64,000 bases of DNA from Chara braunii. Taxonomy: Eukaryota > Plantae > Charophyceae. The DNA lies in contig BFEA01000015.1 in NCBI GenBank assembly GCA_003427395.1, positions 4,662,153-4,726,152 of the forward strand, in the 5' to 3' direction. This document shows positions 8,178 through 58,340 of this stretch, one piece after another. The notes beneath the pieces were generated by a model, which saw only the letters and a list, made by a program, of their open reading frames with translations, made no database searches and was not told the origin of the DNA. Position numbers and translations under genes: made by a program. Numbering within the stretch: position 1 is the first letter of the stretch; each line of letters starts with the position of its first letter.

Positions 8178-9004
8178 ATGAAGCTGCCTACGTGTTCCGT
8201 TTGTCAGATGACGTACAATGAAGACGATCGCGCTCCGATGATGCTGACCTGCGGACACAGTTTTTGCAAAGAGTGTTTAGCACATCTCTTCGCGGAATCG
8301 AGCGATCATACGCTGCCATGTCCTCGATGTCGTCAGATCTCGAAGGTGGGGAACAGTGTGGAAGCGCTAAGGAAGAACTTTGGGATGTTGTCGTTGATAC
8401 GGCAGAGGGCGTCGGGAGGGTGTGGGCTGGAAGAGGAGGAATCGGATAGTGAAGAGGAACTGATGATGATGGAAGCGATGGGGAGCGGTGGAGGAGGTGG
8501 GAGAGGATATACGAGCAGCAGCAGCGGGAGCAGGTTCCCTTCGTCGATCGGCGGAAGCGGGGGAACTGGGGCCGGGATGGTAGGGGGAGGGGGGGTATCG
8601 CGGGGGACGACACCGTTGCTACAAAGTCCGGCCTGGTCTCCGGTGTGCAATGGAAGCTTCTTGGAAGTATCGGCGCATAATCTGCGTTTCATCAAAATGA
8701 TCGGCTCCTCTGCTTCGCGTCCGGGACAGGAAGTGTGGGTGGCTTTGCTGACGGGAAATGGGGGCTGCAGGCACAAGGTGGCGGTGAAGAAAATGGATAT
8801 GCCAGCAGGAGTGAACATTGAATGGATCACTCAGAGGGTGGACAATCTGAGAAGAGCGACGATGTGGTGTCAGAATGTGTGCACGTTGTACGGGGTTTGC
8901 GAGAAGGACGGCAAATTGTGCATAGTCATGGAAAAACACGTGGCGTCCGTACAGATGGTAATGCGAATGGGAGAAGGAAGACTGACCGTTGAGCAAATCC
9001 TCAG
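8178..9004 (+). CDS. KEG: KEG exon 1: RING-HC finger, acidic/Gly-Ser linker, kinase N-lobe
   Basis: ATG at 8178 (MKLPTCSVCQ...CGHSFCKEC...CPRC); VAVKK motif; ends EQILR with AG|GTGAGA donor, phase 2. Confidence 0.95.
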
Positions 9005-16682: not shown

Positions 16683-17187
16683 TTTCATGTCTGATACAGT
16701 CATGATGAGGGGGCGTGGTGTTCTGTAAGAAGTCGGAAGTCAGAAGTAACGGTTATCGAACACAACGCCCCTCGTCACCTCGTCATGACTGTATCGGACC
16801 TGAAAGACAGCTTATCTTTAAAACACATGCACACAGTTATTTTCAAAACACGAGTTTTTTTTTGGGTGGTAATGTGTGTTTGGAGTTTTGCCACAGTACC
16901 TTTGCGAGGAGGCTCAGGGAGGCGCAGAGAGTGTTTCTGTGGGTGTCATTTCCATGGGCTGCTTTTTCGGAGCAGATGGAGGAAATGGGGGCTTCTAGGG
17001 TGTTTTAAGCAGTAGCGCTCCCGGTGTCGCGTGAAGATCTTGTTGATTTTTGGATTATGGCACTCTATACACTCCAGAGCTAGACAGCAAAATGAAATGG
17101 AGGATGTTTAGCCATGGAATGATAGAGATGGTGGTGACGTGAGCAAGTCGTTTGGAATGAATAGCAGTGCCAATGCGGTCGTGCTTG

Positions 17188-17238
17188 TGTAATTAATTTT
17201 GTAATTAATTTTGTAATTAATTTTGTAATTAATTTTGT
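17188..17238. repeat. 12-bp tandem repeat, 4 copies
   Basis: (GTAATTAATTTT)4. Confidence 0.9.
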
Positions 17239-17661
17239 GGACTTGTGGGCCAATACGGAGGGCTCTTCAAGTTTTATTGGACCTAGAGCAGGGGGTCGGT
17301 GCTTTCTTGCTGGTGGAGTCGTCTGTCTTAGGTAAGTTGCCTTTTGCCCTTCATCCCTTTATGGATTATGAGATATATTTGACGATATTTGGGGTGGCAT
17401 ATGACACTCGAATGTCGAATAATAAGCTCTCTGAGTGGTTAACTCCTCGACGCTAAACGACTGCACGTGCGATCGCAGACTCTCCTGCCAGGCGTGGAAG
17501 ATTTGAGAGGGTTGCAAGTCCCCCAGGTTTCATGAGCCCCCCCCGGGTTTCACTGACTGTAGAAGTCCTCTAAAAGCTTCCTTTTGTCCACAATGGGCTT
17601 GTCATTCCGCTAACTTGTCAAAATATTGCCCCGGCAGACACCCACCAAATTGTGAATAAGC

Positions 17662-18430
17662 CCTCCCAACGAGTCCTACTATGAAGTGGTCCCCAACTGC
17701 CCAGTAAAGAGGGCTTATTGCTGGTTTGGCCGGGTCCTGTTTAGTGATATGCGTCAACTTGTCATCATATCCCCTGTAGACCCCTGCCCAAATGTCAGCA
17801 AGCCTCCTGCGGGTCACTAGTGTTGAGGAATTCACTGACGAATGGGTACGTTTTGGGGAGTTAAACACAAACAAGCAGGTCCCCGTGACGCTTGGCGCTA
17901 GCCTGCTCCTCCTCTTCCTGACCACAACACCCGAAAAAGAAAAACATGGCCAAAGTTTGGCACAACTTGCTCCTTGGCACAACCATGCAGTATTATGTGA
18001 GCTGAGCGGCATCGTGTTTTGTGGGTGATACTACACGCACAAAGACATCCCTTGTGCCATGAGGATTACGAAGGGATTGCCCATGCGGGTTTTTCTTTTC
18101 ACAAGTATGATGACAGTCAATACTGCACTCATGTACGGCACCCTGACATGTCATGTCCAATTTGTAGACGGGCTGGAACAGGAATGCCTCTACAATTGCG
18201 GTTGGCATGCTCCCGTGCTCCTAGCGTGTAGGAGCCATGTAGCGTGTGACATCTGTCTACGCGGTGCCGTTCGACGTATCAACTGCGACTGCAAGAATTG
18301 GATGCGGTACTTCCACAGTCCACGCCCTTACAGGTCTGGCTGCTTCCCAATTCAAAATCTTATGAAACCCGAACACGGACTGTCCTCATGTCCCATTCGA
18401 GAGCAGTCTGCTCTAGTGGTGAGTATTTAG
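17662..18430 (+). pseudogene. Disrupted Cys/His-rich RING-finger gene relic, copy A (KEG intron 1)
   Basis: Frameshifted and stop-interrupted reading: SYYE..., HPLCH-x21-CTHVRHPDMSCPIC, EC-x11-LACRSHVACDIC...CPIR; collinear with copy B. Confidence 0.65.
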
Positions 18431-19065
18431 AACCCTGTGAGAATTCCACCTCGTATTTCCTTCCTCCCTGCTCTGTGTACTACTAGTAAATGCATACAGA
18501 TGAGCATCATTGAGAGAACAGACAAATAGAAGCTGAATGTCTGAGGAAAAATGAACAGGGAAATACCTCCACCTTTAATAATGCCTCCTTTCATACTGTG
18601 CAAGTGGGCTGTTATGGCACACGGGGATGTGGGCAGCTCGCACTGAATCACAATCAGCATGGTGAGCCTTGCACATGAGAAGCACAGTATAAGGGGAGGT
18701 GCAAGAATGAATGAAAAGGGTACCCCAAAGAAAGCCAAAGTGAACACAGTTAAGAAAGGGATTTAAACGCTGGTAGTATGTGGGCTGTGCAGATGGTGTC
18801 CTTGGACCGAGGCACCATGTGGGGCGGGCCATACAGTGGATGGTACTAACACAAACCCCCACCCCCACCCCAAAAAAAAAGAAAAACGCAGAGACAGCCA
18901 CGGATATAAAAGAAGAAGCACATGGCCTCAACTGTTGATAGCCCCTAGTAAAAAACTTGACTCTGAGATCTGTTTGGTACTTGCGGTGCGAGGTCATCCG
19001 GAATCAAGCTCCTGCCTGGTTGGTAGAAGTTACTTCTCTGCTTTCCATCCAGACGTGCCCGCTAT

Positions 19066-19470
19066 GTGCTTGTTCGAACACTCACCAAAAAAACGCTACC
19101 CTAATGGCTGTGTATCTTCCCATGTTCTGCCTCTAGATTGATTCTCATTTTGCATATTTGGTGAGACAGCCACGAGACACGTATCTTCCCATGGCCTTAG
19201 CTGTTGACAGGTAGACTGGAGTTCCAATCCTACTGACAAAACAGGCCATGACCTGAATGGCTGTGTATTTTTTCATGTTCGTCCTCATTTTGCATATTTG
19301 GTGAGACAGCCAGGGAAAACCAGGAACCAAATGCCTGTGTATTGTCCCAAGTTCTGGTTCTAGATCCGTTCTCATTTTTGGCATATTTGGTGAGCCAGCC
19401 ATGTGACGAAAAAAGAAACTCAGTGGCTGTGTATGTTCCCATGTTCTGGCTCTACACTTGTTCACATTTT
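19066..19470 (+). repeat. Degenerate family B MITE followed by tandem copies of its 3' half
   Basis: GGCTGTGTAT...CTCATTTTGCATATTTGGTGAG recurs 3-4 times and matches the internal sequence of 11100-11221. Confidence 0.55.
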
Positions 19471-20378
19471 GAAACCTGTGGGACTGTATGGCAATTCTAC
19501 CTTCTTTTGTTTTGATGTGTCTACATGCATCCACGGATCCTCACCGCTTTCCAGCCTCCAAAAGATCCAGCCCTGAAATCCCTTGCTGGTGACTGTGGGA
19601 CTTTGGAGATAAACGAAGTTCAAATGCGGGCTCTCTGGGAGAAATGAGTGAAACTTGGGGAGTGTTGTTTACGAAGTATTGATCAATTACATGGACCTAC
19701 TTTTCAATCCATTTGTGGAAACATAGCATGTGTTTCTAATCATGACACCAAGGCTGCGACGCATCATTACTTTGAAAAAGTGATCTCTTGCGAGCGCCTG
19801 CAAAGCACTGAAGATTTGATTTTCTCTTTTGTTTGGATTGATCCATCTGAGTTTGTCAAGTGATCCTCGCCACCTCCCACTCCTACAAATCCACCACGGA
19901 AATCCCTCGCTGGTGACTGTAGGATTTGGGAGATCCAGAGTTCAGTCGGTGTTGAGTGGCGATGGATGTTAAGTAAAGGTTATTAGCTGATGTATTCGGC
20001 ATTGCACACGTGATTGGTCAGGACTCAGGAATCGTGCAAATAAAATTTGAATTCATCAAGGGACCACACTCTTGAGTGATTTACCAATCAGTTCATTAAT
20101 CTATGGAGTCAGTACGGACATCAGTCTTCGAATCCATCAATCTGTAGGAATGAGCCAAATTGATCAATCAATGCCAAATGTTCAATCTTTATTGAGTCCA
20201 ATGTGTTAGTATGTCCGCCAGTCCAGGTTATCATGTATTTTGAACCTCTTAGTTGAATGGCATCCGTTGAGCAATCTATCTATCATTTGTTACAAAGGAC
20301 TGGTACATGCCAGCCATCGGCTGCGGGCCCCTTTCGGAGGCTGCCCGCTGCCGATGTATTTCATCAATGGTGCACGAG

Positions 20379-20778
20379 AAGTGGTTAATGGAAGGCCCAA
20401 AATTCGGCGAATTTTGGCGATTTTTTCACCGAAACTGCCATATTTCCCTGAATTTTTACTTTTTTCTCGGTTTTTCTTCTTGCCTGTTATATATGTGCTT
20501 TAGGGTATATCTGTATCCAGTTTCGCCGTATTTGGAGCAGTAACAAAAAACTTAGCAAAAACACCAGACTCAAAAAAGGCTTTGGCGAACTCCGAAAGCT
20601 ACTCCGAAAAGGGTTTTATAGTACTCTTGATTTTGATTTTTTCGTTTTTTTTTTGCCTGATTGATTTTTTTGATGTTTGTATTATGATCCTGCATAGTTT
20701 GTTCGCAAAAGTTTTGACAACATTGCTTGTAGCGACGCGGCGAAACCCCCCGAATTTTTAGCCTTCCATTAACCGCTA
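20379..20778. mobile_element. 400-bp non-autonomous TIR element, hAT-like
   Basis: AAGTGGTTAATGGAAGGCCCAAAATTCGG / CCGAATTTTTAGCCTTCCATTAACCGCTA; no convincing TSD. Confidence 0.55.
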
Positions 20779-21110
20779 GTGCGGCGCACAAGCCTCCAAA
20801 ATTTTAGGAGAGGCTCAATCGGATTCTGAACTTGGCTGGGGCCATGTACTGGTGGTTTAAAGTTTTCAATGGCTCAATCTGTGCTGTTTGGTCGATGTAG
20901 TGCGAGGATGCATGGCAGTGCTTGCATTTTCCATTCTATCATCGTCGAGATTACTACGTAGTCCTCTTTCAGATGTTTTCATATTCTCGTTGCTTTGTTT
21001 TTTCGCTGGTTTGCTGCTGTTCTCTCCTCTTGAATTTTCCATGTTGTTTTTGTGTGTGTGATCCAAGTGCTGAACGATGAATTTGGACCATGATGCTTGC
21101 TTTCTTCAAG

Positions 21111-21527
21111 GTACGGGGCGGACATTGCAAGGGGAGTTGCAGAGTTGCATGCAGCAGGAGTGATGTGCATGAACCTGAAGCCTCCAAATTTCCTTATTGA
21201 TAAGCGGGGCAGGGCTTTGGTCGCTGATTTTGCTCTTCCTGGTATCCTGAAGCAACGATGCTGGAGGTCTAAGCATGGGAGCAGCATCAGTGGCACGAGT
21301 GTTGGGCTGGTAGTTGATAGCCACAACTGCCACGAGTGCACATTGATGACACCAAATTATATGGCTCCGGAAGCTTGGCAGCCAGTCAGGAGAGGATCAT
21401 TCCTTCGAGGGGACGATGTTATGGGAATGTCATCGTGGTCTGATGCATGGGCATTTGGCTGCGCACTCGTTGAAATGTGCACAGGAGTGATGCCCTGGGA
21501 TTCTGCAAGTCCGGTGGACATTGAAAG
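21111..21527 (+). CDS. KEG: KEG exon 2: kinase catalytic lobe
   Basis: ttcaag|G acceptor; RYGADIARGVAELHAAGVMCMNLKPPN...YMAPE...SDAWAFGCALVEMCTG; AG|GTGTGT donor. Confidence 0.95.
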
Positions 21528-23299
21528 GTGTGTGCTTTTCACTCCCTGCCCCCTCCTCCCCCCCCACCCCACCCCTTTTGCCTCCCGGCCTTTCCCATGA
21601 GCGCTCATCTCTCCTCCTACCACTACCACTGCTCCTCCTGTGGCAAGTTCTCTGGTCAATTCTGTTGTGAGTCAGGTGGATTTTGGAATGTCTCTGTATA
21701 AAGTCGGACCCCTGCTTCTTACTGTACACCATTCGTTTCTCCCTTTTCCTTATCCTTCCCTGTTTACATTTCCCCCCCGTTTTCTTGGATCAGTGAGGAA
21801 CTTACACTCTTGGTTCACATTCTATGGCAAGTCGTAATGAACTCCAGCAGAAACGAACGGAGTATCAACGAATAAGCAAACTCAACGACCTTTAAAAGCA
21901 GCGCATTTTAAACAGACTGGTCTTCAAGTTTATCGACACTCACGATCACCTGGTTCTCAAATTTGAGTCAGCAATTACAAGCTGGTAAATTTTGAGCCAC
22001 AAGGGTGGCCTTATCTTATTGTACAGAAAGCCCTCACCGTGGTGCTGGACAGTATATACGATCCGGAATTTCTGGACTGTTCTCATGCGAAGTGTGCAAT
22101 ACTCTAGGTAGACCGAGCATTCAAGAGTGTGACTTGGGTTATAGAAGGTGACATTACCACAGCCTGGCGGGTGCCTCACAATGTTATTGGGTGTACCAAC
22201 TGAGCTAGGCCCGTTGGTCGCCATGGCCCTCTTGAGGCGGCAGGGTTCACTGCTTTTGCAATGCTTAAATTGCAGTAAGGATGGCCTGACCATGCTATCC
22301 CTGTGGTTCAAGCCTGGCTGCACTCTCTGCTGTCTTGAGAGGGACGTCCCTCCTCTCATTTTATTAACCTACAGTGACCCTGAGATGTTGATGGTGCTGG
22401 CTCTTGTTCGACAGCAGCATATCCTCTTCCTTGGGATCCTCTCTTTGCTGAGCGGAATCCTTCTTCGTGATGTTTGGTCGCTTGCGGCCCTGGTGCAGAT
22501 TACAGCACTAAATCAAGTCCTTGCTAATAGTCTGAAGTTCTTGTTACTTCAGCCACAAATGCCTGGCCAGCCTTGGTGTGCAGGGGCCACTCACGAATGC
22601 AAACATAATGAGCTCCTCCTTTGGGCTGAGCGCAAGCACATTCAAGACTTGGTCAGGTGCCCTGACCAGACCAGTCATGCTACCTATAGGGTACTCTCTC
22701 AATTCCAGGGGCAGTCTCTACTCAGGATGAAGCCCCAAACGTCAAGGGATTGGAACATGATTTGCCTGGGTTGCAGCTAACCCCACAAAGCGTAGACCAC
22801 GTGGAGGATCTGCAAATGGTTGACCAGCATCGTTTGGATGAACCACAAATTTGTGTCCCGCCATGTGCAGGCCACATGGGTGATCTGCAAATGACTGACC
22901 AGCAAACAACCCAAGACATTTTGGGCATGCAACGACGTCTAGGTGATCTGCAGCCTGAGATCCCCACCAATCTCTGCGGTCTGACTTCAACTAATATCTG
23001 TCTTTTTTCTTCCCTCTTCTTTATTCCTTTTCTTTTCCTTTTTTCAAAAGTGGAAATGACGTTGAGATATCATTGTTGGACTGACCGGCCCCAGGTAATT
23101 CAGGGTGATTTTAATTCTGGTCATCTGATTGTATCTGGACTCGAATTTGGGCCTGTATTTGAACTGTTCATGGGTGTACCAGCCGAGCTAGGCCCGTTGC
23201 TGACTAATATCTGTCTTTAGAATCACTGCCCCCCATTTATTACTGTCAGAATTCCTTGCAATTGCCATTCAGCTGGATGCTGATCTTCCGCGCCTACAA

Positions 23300-24058
23300 T
23301 GCCAGAGGGTATGCAATTATACCAGTGAAAGAGGCTTTTTTACCATGTCTGTCCTACTACGAGTAGCAATGAGGGACCGCCAAAGTGAACTACTCAATGA
23401 TCGACCAGGTTAGTGGTTTAATCCTCCCATCCCACATCTCTGCCTGCGGTGTGCACGGACCTGGCCATTACATGGCCACTGTACATGCCTTTGACTACGG
23501 GGAGCTGTGGGACGAGGTCATCATGGTCCATGACTCCATGCCATGACTGATGTTACTGATTTCTTACATAATGATGTTGTTTTCTTGCCATACCAAGCTG
23601 TCCGGAATGTCTTTTATGTCAGATATCATTCCTCTGGCCCCGTGCTGCAGCAGGACAATGTACCAACACTCTGCGACCTTCTCCTTTGCACAGCTACAAA
23701 CACTGGTACACTCAGCTGTATCTGTCATCGTCTCTGTCACAATCACGTCAATAACATGGTTTCTGCATCCATGTGTGTAGAGGACTGTCCCTTTGTTCCT
23801 GACTGCAGGCACCCTCCGCATCTGGACACTATAAGTCCATTTTGCAGCCATGGGCGCTGTACTGAATGCATGGTCTTTTCTGGTAACCGTTCTTCCTTCA
23901 TTTTGGCCTGCAATCGACATGCCATTTGTTGGGGATGTATGGTGGGCATGCTCAATGTCAGCCATTGTGGCAATCGGTTGTTGGGCCTTCAATATGTGTG
24001 TCCTCCCCATCCTTACACTGTATGTCCTCTCTGTGGACAAGGACAGACTGATTCTTGA
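23300..24058 (+). pseudogene. Cys/His-rich RING-finger gene relic, copy B (KEG intron 2); 3' part is an open 171-aa ORF (23543-24058)
   Basis: Complete C3HC4 pattern CTEC-x13-C-NR-H-AI-C-WG-C-...-CPLC; upstream part (SYYE, GHY) is in another frame with stops. Confidence 0.7.
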
Positions 24059-24169
24059 GCCTTTTCTTATCCTCTCCTTTGCCTTCATCTTCGTTCCACT
24101 CTCTCTACTTTCCCTTGCTTTTCCTTTGTTGTTCTCTGTTTTGTCTTCTCTCCATCTCTCTTCTCTGTG

Positions 24170-24290
24170 TTGATTCCCCCCCAATACCCCCAATACCCCC
24201 AATACCCCCTATACCACCCCTATATCCCCCTATATCCCCCTATATCCCCCTATACTTCCCCTATACTCCCCCCGCATACCCCCCCCTCAT
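24170..24290. repeat. Degenerate 9-10-bp (CCCCCWATA)n repeat
   Basis: Direct inspection. Confidence 0.8.
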
Positions 24291-25738
24291 CCCCAAAAGT
24301 TTCTCAGCGCATTTGGGCTGTACTCAGCAAGCGCAGTACAGCCCCGAACTCAGATTTGAAAAAAAAAAAAAGTGGATGGCTGCTTCTGACTGGTCAGCAG
24401 ACTGCCGACCGGTCGCCCCCACTGGTCGGCTGCAATACGGCCGGCGGGTATGATTGTCTTCATCTTTATCGGCACAGGAATAGTTGAGCAAACCTGAAGT
24501 TTTGTTGGTCCATGTCTTCGTCTCTCTCACCCTTGAATGGTGGTGGCTGATGCAACTCAGGCCATGGGGGCAGGTTGCCCTCTGTCTCAGTAGATGTCCC
24601 AGCTCCATGGTATGCTCTGGGTGCATGGAGACCTCTTTGGGGAGAGGAACGCCTGTGCATTGTGGTGGCAAGTCGCGCCCAACTGTGCAAGGATCTTGTT
24701 GACAGGAACTTTCGGTCTATATCCTGTTTTGTCGACTGCAGAACTCCTGCGGCCTGCAGTGTAGCTTCATGAGGTGTCGAAGGCTCACTTAGAGCATGCT
24801 GTGAATCAGACACCTCCTTTCTCGTCTCAGATTCCTCAATTGTTCTGATCTGCCGGTCCATCTCTCTCCTCCTCGTCTCCAACTCTTCCTTCGTTGGGTT
24901 CCATTCCTCTGGCACCCTCTCTATTCTTTCTCCCTCTTTTCCCTGGCAGCCTCCTGCCAAGGAGCCTCAGGGCTAGACTATTTATAGCGTCCCTTTCCCT
25001 CCCCTCTAGCTTTTGGCATCAAACCTGTTGCTTGACACCTCGTTCTCTCCATGCAAGGGTGCTCATGCAGTAATATGTAGGCGCGGAGCTGAATATATTT
25101 GTGGCACTCCTATGGTCCAAAATGAAAAATGTGCTGGTCCGAACAATCAGCATGGAAGTTTTCACCGGCTGAGATAGGTCGCTTGCTCCCCCTGGCCGGT
25201 CTTGGCAGGAGTCTGGAACCCGACCATCTCGCGCTAGGGGTGAGGAGCCTGGGTACTTCTCCCCATAAAGTAGAGCCGATAGGTACAGATGGGTTCAATT
25301 ACCAGTGGCAGTTAGCTATAGGTTTGGGCCATCTAGCTGTGTAAAGAACTTTGTCCTGGATATGTTTGGGTAAGATAGGTAATGTAGGCAGCGAGTGTGA
25401 GGTGGAAAAGTATTGGGAGAAGAAAGTAGTGTAGTGAATACAGATTTGCCCCATATATGAGGAGAAGACAGCTTAAACAAAAAAAAAAAAAAAAGGTAGG
25501 GAAGTCAGTCAACCATGTGTTGATACATGCGCTGCACCCGTCAATGACTACTAGCAGTTAACTACACAGCAGACATCTGTGATTGAAAGTCCTTTGGGGT
25601 GGTAAACAAATTGCTTGCACTTTGTTGATGCGGTCCGGACGTGGCGCTGATGTGCTGATGTTGTGTCACTGATATACCCGGAGCTGACATTTGATGATGG
25701 TGTGTAGATGGCCTGTAAAAGCGATATGGTCGTGACCA

Positions 25739-45719: not shown

Positions 45720-48129
45720 TGCAAGGAATATGAGTGTGAATGATATACAGAAAACCAAGTTGTGAAATCACACAGATGTACAGGTAGTCATGTCCAAGCA
45801 GAGAGTACAAAATGCACCGAGAAACCATCTAATACAATGAAGTAATGAGCCAATGTTCAAGCCCGTAGGCCACACCAACACGGTATCCAAAGTCGCTCCT
45901 TTCTGTCTGGCGCCCAGCGCCCTGCCTACTCTACCCGACTATCCTATCTGCGGCTGGTTCACGCAACAGTCTCACTTCGACTCTCGAAGACCAATGTACA
46001 TGACTGTCAACACCATAGCTGACTTCTCTTCATGCACGTGGTACGTATCTCGTCACCCTCAATCAGACCTTGATAACCCCACACTCGCCTCCTTCCCTGA
46101 AGACCACCAGATCGTCCTTATTACCCCCTGGCACCCAGCAGCCCGGCTATGGCCGCCTTCGCCCCGCTGCCCTGCAGCGCCCCACTTCATCGCTATGCAC
46201 CCCGTCAGCACCCTTGGCCGCAGCGCAGCAGCACTTCTGTGTTGCCTGCACTGGCCAGAATGCCTGGCTTGGGCCTGGATGCTGCGTGTGGCCTGGCTGG
46301 AAGCTTCCAGTAGCTTCCGGTAGGGCCTCAGGCCCGGGACTACAATTGAGGGCCTGGGCCCTTTTCAGTTGGGCACGGCCTGAGTTTCCAGACTTGAGCT
46401 GTTTGCTGCATCTGTGCAGGGCTCCCAGGTAGCTGCGTCGGAAGTACTGCTTTAGCAAAGGTCGATGGCCTGCTTCCCAATGTATCGGCCCTGCTTTGTG
46501 TGTATGTGCCCAGGCGCAACTCTCAAGGCCTGGGCCAACTGTACGATGCAGCTTAGTGAGTGTTACATGCTGCGCCTGCAACAGGCTGCACGGGCCATTT
46601 TCAGGCCCGTGTCGTTCTCAGCCTGAAAGCCTGAAAACGACGAGGGCCTACAGACCCCATGTTGTTTTCAGGCCAAAAGCCTGAAAACAAGGGCCTACAG
46701 GCCCCGTGTCGTTTCAGCCTAAAAGCCTGAAAACGAGGGCCTACAGGCCCTGTGTCGTTTCAGGCTAAATCAGGGCCGTTCCGGCCCTGAGTATGAGTAT
46801 TTTCAGCCTGAAACTGAGGGCCATTTTCAGGCCATCATCAGATCGACCTGCCCTGAAACTCAGGCACCAGACCAGGGTTTAGCTCAGGCCATTTTTGGCC
46901 TATTTTCAAGACAACCTTTGTTTGAGCTTCAACCCCAGGGTCTGGCACGTGTTGGCATTGGCAAGAGCAGCCTCCTGGACGGGCCAGCACTATATAAGAC
47001 TGGCCCGCCCTGCAGGCTGCAGGTAGTGGGGAGGCTGCTCCTAGGTACTTCCCAGGCACTTCACGTGGAGGCAGGAGGCAGTCAGTAGTTTTCAGGATCG
47101 GCAGCAGCACTCTGGAGGAGCGCTGCAGGAGTAGTGGTAGCGTTAGCAGTAGTCTTCAGCGCTGGGCGCTAGTAGCGTTAGGTGTAGTCTTCAGCACTGG
47201 GCGCCATAGCTAGAATAGTACTAGAGAGAGAGATTTTGGGCGGAGGCCAGGGATACTTACCTGCAGCGCCGTTGCTCCAGCTTCGTCTTCGAGGTACCTG
47301 CATCACAGCGCCAACTTCACAGGTTAGTACCTCGCTCGTGAGAGAGAGAGTTCTTCTTCTTCCTCTTCTCAGTCCACCATCTCCCTCTCACCCTCTCATT
47401 ATCTGACTTCACTGCATCAGCAGACTACTAGAGAAAGAGAGAGAGAGAGAGCTTGGTGACATTGGATCCAGACTCGACTTTTGGGCTTCAGACATTTCGA
47501 CGAGGGATTATTTGGGACTTGTGACAACAACTTGGTGTTGACGACATTCCCATCTCTCCCCCTCTTCTTCGTTTGATCCCCTGCTCTTCGTCTGTGTATG
47601 TCTGGACCTGGCGCTTCCTTCCTGTGTATAGCGCCAGGCTCCTTCACACCTTGTGATGAGCATGATGTATGTTTGGTCTGCGTTGAAACATCGATTGGGC
47701 TAGTCATAGTATTCTAGCACTCTGCTTCGCTATCTTGTACTACGTGATAGAGGTCAGTCTCGGTCAGGTCAGGTCTTGTATCTAAGTCTTCCCTGCGCTA
47801 TAAAGCACCATTTTGTATGTATGGGAATGCACATTGCTTGTTGAGATTCTACTTGCACTGCATTGTCCATTCAGTCCTTTTTATCACATTGCGGATCCTC
47901 GGTTTTCTATGTACATCGCCCAACTGGGCATGTAACAGTGAGGCTCATGCGTCTACCCGACCAACTGGCGTGCTGCGAGAGCCCGAATACCCACATATGG
48001 AAATGTCAAAATTTGGCCTTCGACGAATATTCAGGCCCGCCTTCACTTAGGGCGGGCACTCGGCTTGCTGGGGCCTTAGCCCAGAACATGTGATGTCTGA
48101 TAGGGCCCCTTGAGGGCTCGTTCCTCACA
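45720..48129. mobile_element. Probable solo LTR, 2410 bp
   Basis: TG...CA ends with short inverted termini (TGCAAGGAA / TTCCTCACA); 4-bp TSD ATTC at 45716-45719 and 48130-48133; TATATAA at 46991; internal tandem repeats at ~46600-46870; no recognisable coding domain. Confidence 0.62.
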
Positions 48130-53427: not shown

Positions 53428-53465
53428 CTGTCTCTTATACACATCTAGATGTGTATAAGAGACAG
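53428..53465. other. Nextera mate-pair junction adapter (artefact)
   Basis: Exact CTGTCTCTTATACACATCT+AGATGTGTATAAGAGACAG (back-to-back Tn5 mosaic ends) next to an N gap. Confidence 0.98.
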
Positions 53466-53520
53466 ATATAAGACTGGCCCGCCCTGCAGGCTGCAGGTAN
53501 NNNNNNNNNNNNNNNNNNNN

Positions 53521-57049: not shown

Positions 57050-58340
57050 ACTTGTCTTCTTCGGACCTCTCCTCCTCTTCTTCTTCTTCCTCGGCTTCTT
57101 CGTCTCTGTCTTCGTCTTTGCTGTCGTTGTGTTTGTTTCGTCTTCGTATTTGCCGTTGTCCTCTTTGCTGTCAGACAAACACATGTTTGTCTTCTTCTTC
57201 TTCTTCTTCTTCTTCTTCTTCTTCTTCTTCTTCTTCTTCGTCGTCGTCGTCGTCGTCGTCTTCTTCTTCGTCTTCGTCTCCTTTGTCTTCTTCGTAGTCT
57301 TCTTCGCCGTCTTCTTCTTTTCCTTTTCCTCTTCTTCTTCTTCTTCTTCGTTGTCGTCGTCGTCTTCTTCGTCTTCTTCGTCTCTTCGTCTTCTTTGTCT
57401 TCTTTGTCTTCTTCGTCTTCTTCATCATCTTCGTCATNCTTCTTCGTTGTCGTCGTCGTCTTCTTCGTCTTCTTCGTCTCTTCGTCTTCTTTGTCTTCTT
57501 TGTCTTCTTCGTCTTCTTCATCATCTTCGTCATCTTCGTCATTTTCCTTTCCTCTTCCTCTTCCTCTTCGTCATTGTCGTCATTTCCCTTTCCTCTTCCT
57601 CTTCCTCTTCCTCTTCCTCCTCCTCTTCCTCTTCCTCTTCGTCTTTGTCTTCGTCTTCCTCTTCCTCCTCTTCTTCGTCATTGTCGTCATCTTCTTCTTC
57701 CTCTTCCTCTTCTACTTCTTCATCATTGTCGTCATCTTCTTCCTCTTCCTCCTCTTCTTCGTCCTTCTTCGTTGTCGTCGTCGTCTTCTTCGTCTTCTTC
57801 GTCTCTTCGTCTTCTTTGTCTTCTTTGTCTTCTTCGTCTTCTTCATCATCTTCGTCATCTTCGTCATTTTCCTTTCCTCTTCCTCTTCCTCCTGTCTCTT
57901 ATACACATCTAGATGTGTATAAGAGACAGGTCTTTTATGCTGCTATTGAAACCAATCTTGCCCCTCTTACCATATCCTCTTCCTCTTCTACTTCTTCATC
58001 ATTGTCGTCATCTTCTTCCTCTTCCTCCTCTTCTTCGTCATTGTCGTCATCATCTTCTTCTTCTTCTTCTTCTTCTTCTTCTTCTTCTTCTTCTTCTTCT
58101 TCTTCTTCTTCTTCTTCTTTTCCTGTTCTTCTTCCTCCTCCTCCTCCTCCTCTTCTTCTTCTTCTTCTTCTTCTTCCTCTTTCCGCTTCTTCTTCTTCCT
58201 CCTCTTCGTCGTCAATGTCGTCATCTTCGTCCTCTTCCTCTTCCTCTTCCTCTTCCTTCTCTTCCGCTTCCTCTTCCACTTTCTCTTCCTCTTCCTCTTC
58301 TTCTTCCTCCTCTTCTTATTCCTCCTCTTCTACTTCCTCC
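57050..58340. repeat. Large (TCT/TCG/TCC)n low-complexity tract with local duplications
   Basis: Trinucleotide-periodic pyrimidine tract; contains an N and an adapter. Confidence 0.9.
57892..57929. other. Nextera mate-pair junction adapter (artefact)
   Basis: Exact 38-bp junction sequence. Confidence 0.98.

What the first reader, a model, noticed from the sequence alone, without database searches (positions are those of the whole stretch)
17662..24058. Two diverged copies of an unrecognised Cys/His-rich RING-finger gene nested in introns of a RING E3 ligase
Seen: 17662-18430 (intron 1) and ~23300-24058 (intron 2) are both sense to KEG and encode collinear peptides with identical spacings. 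Shared blocks are SYYE (17674, 23352), GH[*/Y]xxx[I/V]H, HxLCH-x21-CxHxxHxD-x3-PxC, then EC-x11-LAC-x2-H-x2-C-x2-C and a terminal CP[I/L]. Copy B has a complete C3HC4 RING (CTEC...CNRHAICWGC...CPLC) within a 171-aa ORF. The HxLCH...PxC block before it looks like a second, degenerate RING or a new Zn-binding module. Neither copy resembles KEG's own RING beyond the ligands. Inference: conserved ligands against a heavily diverged background indicate past purifying selection. Two intronless, decayed copies within 6 kb suggest a high-copy mobile or viral cargo gene, possibly a selfish element carrying its own ubiquitin ligase. No element ends could be defined. This is my best candidate for an undescribed system.
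Basis: partly seen in the sequence, partly recalled or inferred. Interest (0 to 1): 0.78.

Follow-up and report, generated by a model that had tools for sequence, protein, structure and literature searches.

The report
Dead tails of known Chara retrotransposons
The two cysteine-rich remnants are the broken tail ends of two already published, very abundant jumping-gene families of the alga Chara, whose intact copies likely carry a ubiquitin-removing enzyme followed by repeated zinc-binding modules that may be RING-like, so the finding is ordinary.

Summary
The two Cys/His remnants are real and homologous (A vs B score 100; 0 of 3000 shuffles reach it), but they are not an undescribed system. 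B (~22690-24180) is the 3' end of Chlamys-6_cBra (about 91% identical, hand count over 280 nt). A (~18046-18765) is the 3' end of Chlamys-4_cBra (about 84% over 140 nt). Both are Penelope-like retroelements of Chara braunii described by Craig et al. 2021 (PMC8557442) as having a Josephin domain plus an 'unknown' C/H domain at the C-terminus. They are independent, 5'-truncated insertions of two families, not duplicates of one gene. Both lie in highly repeated DNA. Several cited motifs are artefacts: A's SYYE and GH* lie in single-copy DNA outside the element, B's SYYE is out of frame, A's final CPI is 3'-UTR, and B's first 'RING' cysteine is a private change. What I add: the C/H domain is a tandem module (two in Chlamys-1/-6, four in Chlamys-4) with RING-like spacing, and the Josephin triad is complete in all three consensus sequences. 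RING fold and E3 activity are unproven. The scan earlier noted a Josephin-type Chlamys piece in another genome (e1-9095546).

The parts
18046..18765 (+). Copy A: 5'-truncated 3' end of a Chlamys-4_cBra-type Penelope-like element (ends approximate; the 5' match may reach about 18010)
   Evidence: 118 of 140 nt identical over two consensus lines, hand count; two exact motifs; depth rises from 10-15 to above 1,300 from bin 18032 and falls after 18763
18046..18165 (+). A: C-terminal part of a Cys/His module (third of four in the Chlamys-4 consensus)
   Evidence: module profile match E 7e-22, A is in the profile; consensus read by eye
18182..18331 (+). A: last Cys/His module, after a frameshift near 18170; the final CxxC is lost
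   Evidence: (loose ends behind 18169 and 18327)
18595..18675 (+). 3'-UTR motif shared by Chlamys-1, -4 and -6_cBra; candidate structured RNA signal
   Evidence: summed depth 121,000-135,000 in bin 18581-18641; present in all three consensus 3' ends; fold z = -0.18; no Rfam match
17422..17909 (.).
   Evidence: depth 10.5-18 at 80% likeness; no significant match to Josephin
22690..24180 (+). Copy B: 5'-truncated 3' part of Chlamys-6_cBra (spacer, Josephin, two Cys/His modules, stop, start of 3'-UTR); ends approximate
   Evidence: 256 of 280 nt identical over four consensus lines, hand count; three exact motifs; depth 33,000-59,000 over 23423-24024 against 38-45 over 22219-22519
22969..23513 (+). 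B: disrupted Josephin domain; triad codons Cys 22975, His 23466, Asp 23511 present but in different frames
   Evidence: tblastn with P0004 E 1e-15 and 0.003; P0004 matches Pfam Josephin E 1.6e-5, 25.2 bits against a cut-off of 26; coordinates
23006..23202 (-). Nested short retroposon, likely a tRNA-derived SINE, with A-rich tail and a 16-bp target-site duplication (22990-23005, 23203-23218)
   Evidence: duplication; sequence; loose ends pile up at 23062 and 23199 in 125-189 contigs; A/B-box likeness is by eye, ARAGORN finds no tRNA
23672..23845 (+). B: Cys/His module 1 (seventh ligand lost)
23867..24034 (+).
21111..21527 (+). Exon 2 of the host KEG-type gene (kinase), separating the two insertions
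   Evidence: Pfam Pkinase E 2.6e-13; splice sites

Best explanation
A and B are decayed, front-truncated 3' ends of two different Penelope-like retrotransposon families (Chlamys-4_cBra and Chlamys-6_cBra) lying in two introns of a KEG-type gene, likely inserted independently by reverse transcription that stopped early, and neither is predicted to make a working protein. Shown: the sequence match, the repetitiveness, the breaks, and the lack of element sequence upstream. From the paper: intact members have one ORF of about 1,800 aa ordered GIY-YIG endonuclease, reverse transcriptase, Josephin-like domain, C/H-rich domain. Inferred: in intact members the Josephin domain is an active deubiquitinase that would protect the element's polyprotein from ubiquitin-driven degradation (about 65%). 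The tandem Cys/His modules would bind zinc in a RING-like fold (about 60%) and most likely act as a protein-binding scaffold rather than as an E3 ligase (E3 about 25%). The KEG location is likely incidental.
For: B homolog P0004 has Josephin directly before the same Cys/His block. PMC8557442 describes this architecture in C. braunii Chlamys-1, -4 and -6. Consensus DNA is colinear with B and A (hand counts 256/280 and 118/140). 5 of 5 window motifs of 17-22 nt occur once each in the 584,131-character supplement, in the expected families (I picked them after reading the consensus, so this confirms the reading and is not a blind test). Loose ends of relatives laid on A spell the Chlamys-4 consensus at A's breaks. 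Depth is more than 1,000 times single-copy DNA over both (a proxy only). Cys, His and Asp/Asn with His-to-acid spacing 15 occur in all three consensus sequences, P0004 and B (by eye), the same spacing as His125-Asp140 of human Josephin-2 (PMC7337049). Helitron-encoded deubiquitinases of another class are active (PMC9741609).
Against: No RT, endonuclease, pseudo-LTR, target-site duplication or flanking microsatellite was found at A or B, so the link to RT rests on the published consensus, not on this window. Both 3' termini are missing or displaced. Identities are hand counts over 420 nt only. The Josephin Pfam score of P0004 is just under the curated cut-off, and B's own pieces give no Pfam match. 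No enzyme activity has been tested.
Confidence: 0.96

Rival explanations
1. Same origin, but the Cys/His modules of intact elements are true RING E3 ligases, so the polyprotein would pair a deubiquitinase with an E3 to edit ubiquitin on itself or on host silencing factors.
For: Modules keep C-x(2-4)-C-x9-C-x2-H-x2-C-x2-[C/H] and a final C-x2-C. All named clusters shown by the Atlas feature search are RING types, at 0.81-0.87 (under 0.9, a lead only). The module profile scores KEG's RING at 8.4 bits, reached by 2 of 2000 shuffles.
Against: No Pfam RING match for B, P0001 or P0004; A gives zf-RING_5 at only E 1.5. hhalign against KEG's RING gives probability 5%. Every other module has His as the sixth ligand and all carry an extra C-x-H-x2-H insert. 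The only RING among 3 weak PDB rows (E 2.3) is a viral RING protein Z that I recall acting as a scaffold, not a ligase.
Confidence: 0.25
2. One reading: two copies of one undescribed mobile or viral RING cargo gene.
For: Protein homology of A and B; nearest Atlas clusters include giant-virus RING proteins (below the 0.9 bar).
Against: Each copy is far closer in DNA to a different published consensus than to the other copy. No relative confirmed in viral contigs (0 of 126 pattern matches) or metagenome contigs (0 of 598).
Confidence: 0.02
3. The fragments come from Dualen/RandI LINEs, which also carry a Josephin-like protease.
For: Dualen elements encode a Josephin-related protease (as cited in PMC8557442; PMC9977147); Josephin is N-terminal in such ORF2 proteins (bioRxiv 10.64898/2026.06.17.732966).
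Against: Here Josephin and the C/H modules end the ORF and are followed by a Chlamys 3'-UTR; the DNA matches Chlamys consensus sequences.
Confidence: 0.01

Closest known systems
Chlamys-6_cBra, Josephin-type Chlamys PLE of Chara braunii (Craig et al. 2021, PMC8557442; seen: abstract, sections 7, 9, 15, passages, supplement parts 1, 2, 45-48; figures not held)
   Same: B is colinear with its last ~1.7 kb: spacer, Josephin, two C/H modules, stop, start of 3'-UTR; about 91% identical over 280 nt counted by hand.
   Different: B lacks everything upstream (endonuclease, RT) and the last ~240 nt; it carries a nested SINE-like insertion, frameshifts, stops and lost cysteines.
Chlamys-4_cBra (same paper)
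   Same: A is colinear with its last two C/H modules and 3'-UTR; about 84% identical over 140 nt counted by hand.
   Different: A has no Josephin part, has a frameshift near 18170, has lost the last CxxC, and does not show the last ~130 nt of the consensus.
Dualen/RandI LINEs with Josephin-related cysteine protease (Kojima and Fujiwara 2005: not read, known through citations)
   Same: A retrotransposon ORF that carries a Josephin-like protease.
   Different: LINE with APE, RLE and RNase H; Josephin is N-terminal; no DNA match tested or expected.
MJD/Josephin deubiquitinases, e.g. human Josephin-2 (PMC7337049; passages seen)
   Same: Cys-His-Asp triad with His-to-Asp spacing of 15 residues; Pfam PF02099 match of homolog P0004.
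   Different: Fused to a retroelement polyprotein; match just under the Pfam cut-off; activity untested; broken in B.
C3HC4 RING fingers (KEG's own RING; Pfam zf-RING families)
   Same: Order of eight potential zinc ligands with a central C-x2-H-x2-C-x2-C and a final C-x2-C.
   Different: C-x2-H rather than C-x-H, first pair spaced 2-4, His as sixth ligand in alternate modules, an extra C-x-H-x2-H insert, tandem repetition; no significant profile match.

Membership tests
Josephin-type Chlamys PLE (Chlamys-1/-4/-6_cBra) | Colinear nucleotide homology to a family consensus | tested here: met
   B to Chlamys-6 256/280, A to Chlamys-4 118/140 by hand; 5 of 5 chosen exact motifs
Josephin-type Chlamys PLE (Chlamys-1/-4/-6_cBra) | C-terminal extension: Josephin motif then C/H-rich domain | tested here: met
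   B has both, disrupted; A has only the C/H part because it is truncated
Josephin-type Chlamys PLE (Chlamys-1/-4/-6_cBra) | High copy number with frequent 5' truncation | tested here: met
   summed depth above 1,000 times single-copy over both 3' ends, falling to near single-copy upstream; a proxy, not a count
Josephin-type Chlamys PLE (Chlamys-1/-4/-6_cBra) | N-terminal GIY-YIG endonuclease, CxC motif and RT with IFD in the same ORF | not testable with these tools
   absent from both truncated copies; no genome is held; present in the published consensus
Josephin-type Chlamys PLE (Chlamys-1/-4/-6_cBra) | Pseudo-LTR or tandem structure; insertion into (CA)n or (TA)n | tested here: inconclusive
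   no self-repeat at A or B in blastn and no flanking microsatellite, but both 3' termini are missing or displaced
Josephin-type Chlamys PLE (Chlamys-1/-4/-6_cBra) | No canonical hammerhead ribozyme | tested here: met
   0 Rfam matches at E up to 1 in 17000-25000; File S2 lists none for these three families
Josephin/MJD deubiquitinase | Pfam PF02099 match and Cys-His-Asp/Asn triad | tested here: inconclusive
   P0004 E 1.6e-5 but 25.2 bits against cut-off 26; triad present by eye; models too poor to test the fold
Josephin/MJD deubiquitinase | Cleaves ubiquitin chains | not testable with these tools
   needs an enzyme assay
C3HC4 RING finger | Profile match to RING families | tested here: not met
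   no Pfam RING match for B, P0001, P0004 at E up to 10; A only E 1.5; hhalign probability 5%
C3HC4 RING finger | Eight ligands in cross-brace order | tested here: inconclusive
   order is RING-like in intact relatives with variant spacing; B and A have each lost ligands
C3HC4 RING finger | RING fold | tested here: inconclusive
   model pLDDT 37, fold search uninformative; Atlas features RING-like under the 0.9 bar, Atlas structure rows under the bar
RING E3 ligase | E2 binding and ubiquitin transfer | not testable with these tools
   needs an assay on an intact consensus domain
Dualen/RandI LINE | N-terminal Josephin with APE, RT, RNase H, RLE downstream | tested here: not met
   the ORF ends after the C/H modules and a Chlamys 3'-UTR follows

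The most novel reading that the evidence does not exclude
The 'unknown C/H domain' of Josephin-type Chlamys elements is a tandem array (two or four units) of a variant RING finger with an inserted extra zinc site, and it works as an E3 ligase. These retroelements would then carry a fused deubiquitinase plus ligase, a ubiquitin-editing pair on a telomerase-related retrotransposon, which I did not find described (searches; Fig. 6 of PMC8557442 could not be seen).
Probability: 0.22. Interest if true: 0.5.

Novelty: already known. Interest (0 to 1): 0.13.

Why it matters
For this window it matters little: these are two of very many dead copies of published families. It is a useful annotation warning, because the abundant 3' ends lack RT, escape Pfam, and look like orphan RING genes; one C. 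braunii gene model ends in such a fragment (P0003). The small addition is a testable reading of a domain that the describing paper left as unknown: a tandem RING-like zinc module next to a Josephin domain with a complete triad. If both are active, it would show a retroelement steering the host ubiquitin system in both directions.

Tried and rejected
Whole-genome copy count: no genome is held. Pfam on B, A and neighbouring ORFs: nothing significant. Protein searches: 1 hit among 4 candidates, 1 among 5561, 2 among 1907; profile search of 1.84 billion representatives gave 4 hits, of which I dropped P0005 as a His-rich tandem-repeat artefact. Related loci: 0 of 598 metagenome and 0 of 126 viral pattern matches confirmed. 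Atlas with B: no usable hit. AlphaFold models of P0001 and P0004 had pLDDT 37 and 41 from alignments of 5 and 4 rows; fold searches with them gave nothing and are no evidence either way. PDB sequence searches: nothing significant. Rfam: none. 3'-UTR motif: not more stable than shuffles (83 of 200 fold as well); no second copy in the window at 26 of 42 matches. No RNA holder was listed. Rejected: A and B as duplicates of each other (no DNA similarity); A-upstream as an old Josephin relic (a 7-residue likeness to P0004 remains but is not significant); Dualen origin; viral origin. dN/dS was not run because no set of copies could be fetched.
Full report
Setting. The window holds a KEG-type gene on +: RING and kinase start in 8178-9004, kinase exon 21111-21527, next exon from 27834, then ankyrin and Mind-bomb SH3 exons. 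Copy A lies in intron 1 and copy B in intron 2, as stated. No genome is held. The host is Chara braunii or a close relative: a named C. braunii protein holds a B-like fragment and both copies match C. braunii consensus sequences (below).

Observation. The motifs exist at the given places. A, read across one frameshift with X, aligns to B with score 100 against 35 +/- 6 for 3000 shuffles, none reaching it; B is A's best non-self partner among 533 ORFs. DNA similarity is nil (29 against 31 +/- 3). So the Cys/His core is homologous at the protein level only.

What it is. A profile search of 1.84 billion representatives gave 4 hits: P0001 (67% to B), P0003, P0004 and P0005 (dropped as a repeat artefact). 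P0004 has a Josephin domain (Pfam E 1.6e-5, 25.2 bits, cut-off 26) directly before the same Cys/His block, and it matches B's upstream region (E 1e-15 and 0.003). A literature search led to Craig et al. 2021. [quoted passage not shown] File S1 lists three such families: Chlamys-1, -4 and -6_cBra. Reading the consensus DNA, B is colinear with Chlamys-6 from about 22690 to 24180 (256 of 280 nt identical over four lines, hand count). A is colinear with Chlamys-4 from about 18046 to 18765 (118 of 140 over two lines). Five window motifs that I chose after this reading each occur once in the supplement, three in Chlamys-6 and two in Chlamys-4. Independently, loose ends of relatives laid on A spell the Chlamys-4 consensus at A's breaks, behind 18169 and 18327.

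Copy number and ends. Contigs of two DNA runs laid at 80% likeness give summed depth 10-15 on unique DNA, 33,000-59,000 over 23423-24024, 7,500-47,000 over 18093-18336 and 121,000-135,000 over the shared 3'-UTR motif. The tool warns that this is not a copy number; I use it only to show strong repetition. Depth drops to 38-45 at 22219-22519 and to 10.5-18 at 17422-17909, so both copies are cut at the front, as is usual for these elements. I found no pseudo-LTR, target duplication or microsatellite at either copy. Both lack the last part of the consensus 3' end.

A's SYYE and GH* lie in single-copy DNA and show no significant match to B-upstream (352 of 2000 in that frame) or to P0004's Josephin (439, 1783, 823 of 2000). 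One other frame pair scored 2 of 2000 but is off the consensus frame. B's SYYE is out of frame. B's GHY is real and is the Josephin catalytic His. A's final CPI is 3'-UTR. In B the first Cys of CTEC is Tyr in the Chlamys-6 and Chlamys-1 consensus and in P0001, and two conserved cysteines are lost. B's 171-aa ORF is what remains open after a SINE-like insertion at 23006-23202 (16-bp duplication), frameshifts and stops.

Anatomy of the C/H domain. It is a tandem repeat: the two halves of P0001 align with score 108 (0 of 2000 shuffles). Seven modules align to C-x(2-4)-C-x9-C-x2-H-x2-C-x2-[C/H]-x(n)-C-x-H-x2-H-P-x3-C-x2-C. Chlamys-1 and -6 have two modules and Chlamys-4 has four (by eye). Evidence for a RING fold is suggestive only: Atlas feature neighbours are RING clusters at 0.81-0.87, and the module profile scores KEG's RING above all but 2 of 2000 shuffles. 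Against it: no Pfam RING match (best E 1.5), hhalign probability 5%, no significant PDB match. The models were too poor to judge.

Mechanism. Shown: two dead 3' fragments of two families. From the paper: intact elements join endonuclease, RT, Josephin and C/H domain in one ORF. Inferred: reverse transcription from the RNA's 3' end stopped early, leaving mostly 3' pieces, two of which fell into long KEG introns by chance. The Josephin domain of intact elements keeps Cys, His and Asp/Asn with His-to-acid spacing 15 in all three families (by eye), as in Josephin-2. I think it most likely removes ubiquitin to stabilise the polyprotein, the role the paper suggests for Dualen and that was proposed for active Helitron deubiquitinases. 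The modules most likely bind zinc and partner proteins; E3 activity is possible but unsupported.

Literature seen. PMC8557442: abstract, sections 7, 9, 15, passages, supplement parts 1, 2, 45-48 and term searches; figures are not held and protein records are cut, so Fig. 6 may already show the motif or a domain match. Its bioRxiv version: passages and section 9. PMC9977147, PMC7337049, PMC9741609 and bioRxiv 10.64898/2026.06.17.732966: passages. Kojima and Fujiwara 2005: not read. 'RING' occurs once in the PMC8557442 text, for another motif, and not in its supplement text. Searches (listings only) showed no later study of this domain; subscription papers are not covered.

Verdict. Real and homologous, but already known: two decayed copies of published families. 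Interest 0.13. The open residue is the fold and activity of the tandem Cys/His module, and a shared 3'-UTR motif.

Noticed in passing
window 18595-18675: 3'-UTR motif shared by Chlamys-1, -4 and -6_cBra; the most repeated stretch laid (depth 121,000-135,000). By eye its outer stem and an inner 6-bp stem keep pairing through changes on both sides across the three consensus sequences. No Rfam match; the window copy is not unusually stable. Candidate RT-recognition signal; no formal covariance test.
   Followed up: partly
window 23006-23202 (- strand); partial second copy near 22182-22216: SINE-like insertion with a tRNA-like head (by eye), A-rich tail and 16-bp target-site duplication, inserted just after the Josephin catalytic Cys of B.
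   Followed up: partly
P0003 (GBG91891.1), residues 1652-1706: A C. braunii Maestro/HEAT-repeat gene model, marked partial, ends in 55 residues of a Chlamys-6-type fragment: a gene-model artefact or an exonised piece.
   Followed up: no
window 20340-20860: High-copy repeat in intron 1; relatives skip 420-450 internal bases and many diverge at 20860. Looks like a non-autonomous element with deleted derivatives.
   Followed up: no
window 16800-17400, 18607-19208, 19510-19810, 21918-22218, 24180-24626: Further high-copy stretches in the two introns, unidentified; 24180-24320 is a C-rich tandem repeat that replaces B's 3' end.
   Followed up: no
window 17422-18030: Single-copy or near single-copy DNA just upstream of A with short likenesses to Josephin-type motifs that are not significant; origin unexplained.
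   Followed up: partly
window ~53430-53500, ~57890-57930, ~46990-47025: The same short sequence recurs next to low-complexity DNA and N runs; I recall it as sequencing-adapter read-through, i.e. an assembly artefact.
   Followed up: no
Chlamys-4_cBra consensus (PMC8557442 supplement): It holds four Cys/His modules against two in Chlamys-1 and -6; its protein record is about 165 residues longer (1936 vs 1772 and 1768 characters). I did not see this noted in the sections read.
   Followed up: partly
window 23423-24024 and 18093-18336: PolyA RNA reads of relatives (mostly under 95% alike) cover both regions. Over B they are mainly of the same orientation as the few KEG exon reads, so likely sense; over A one run shows both strands. 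This shows family transcription, not transcription of these copies.
   Followed up: partly
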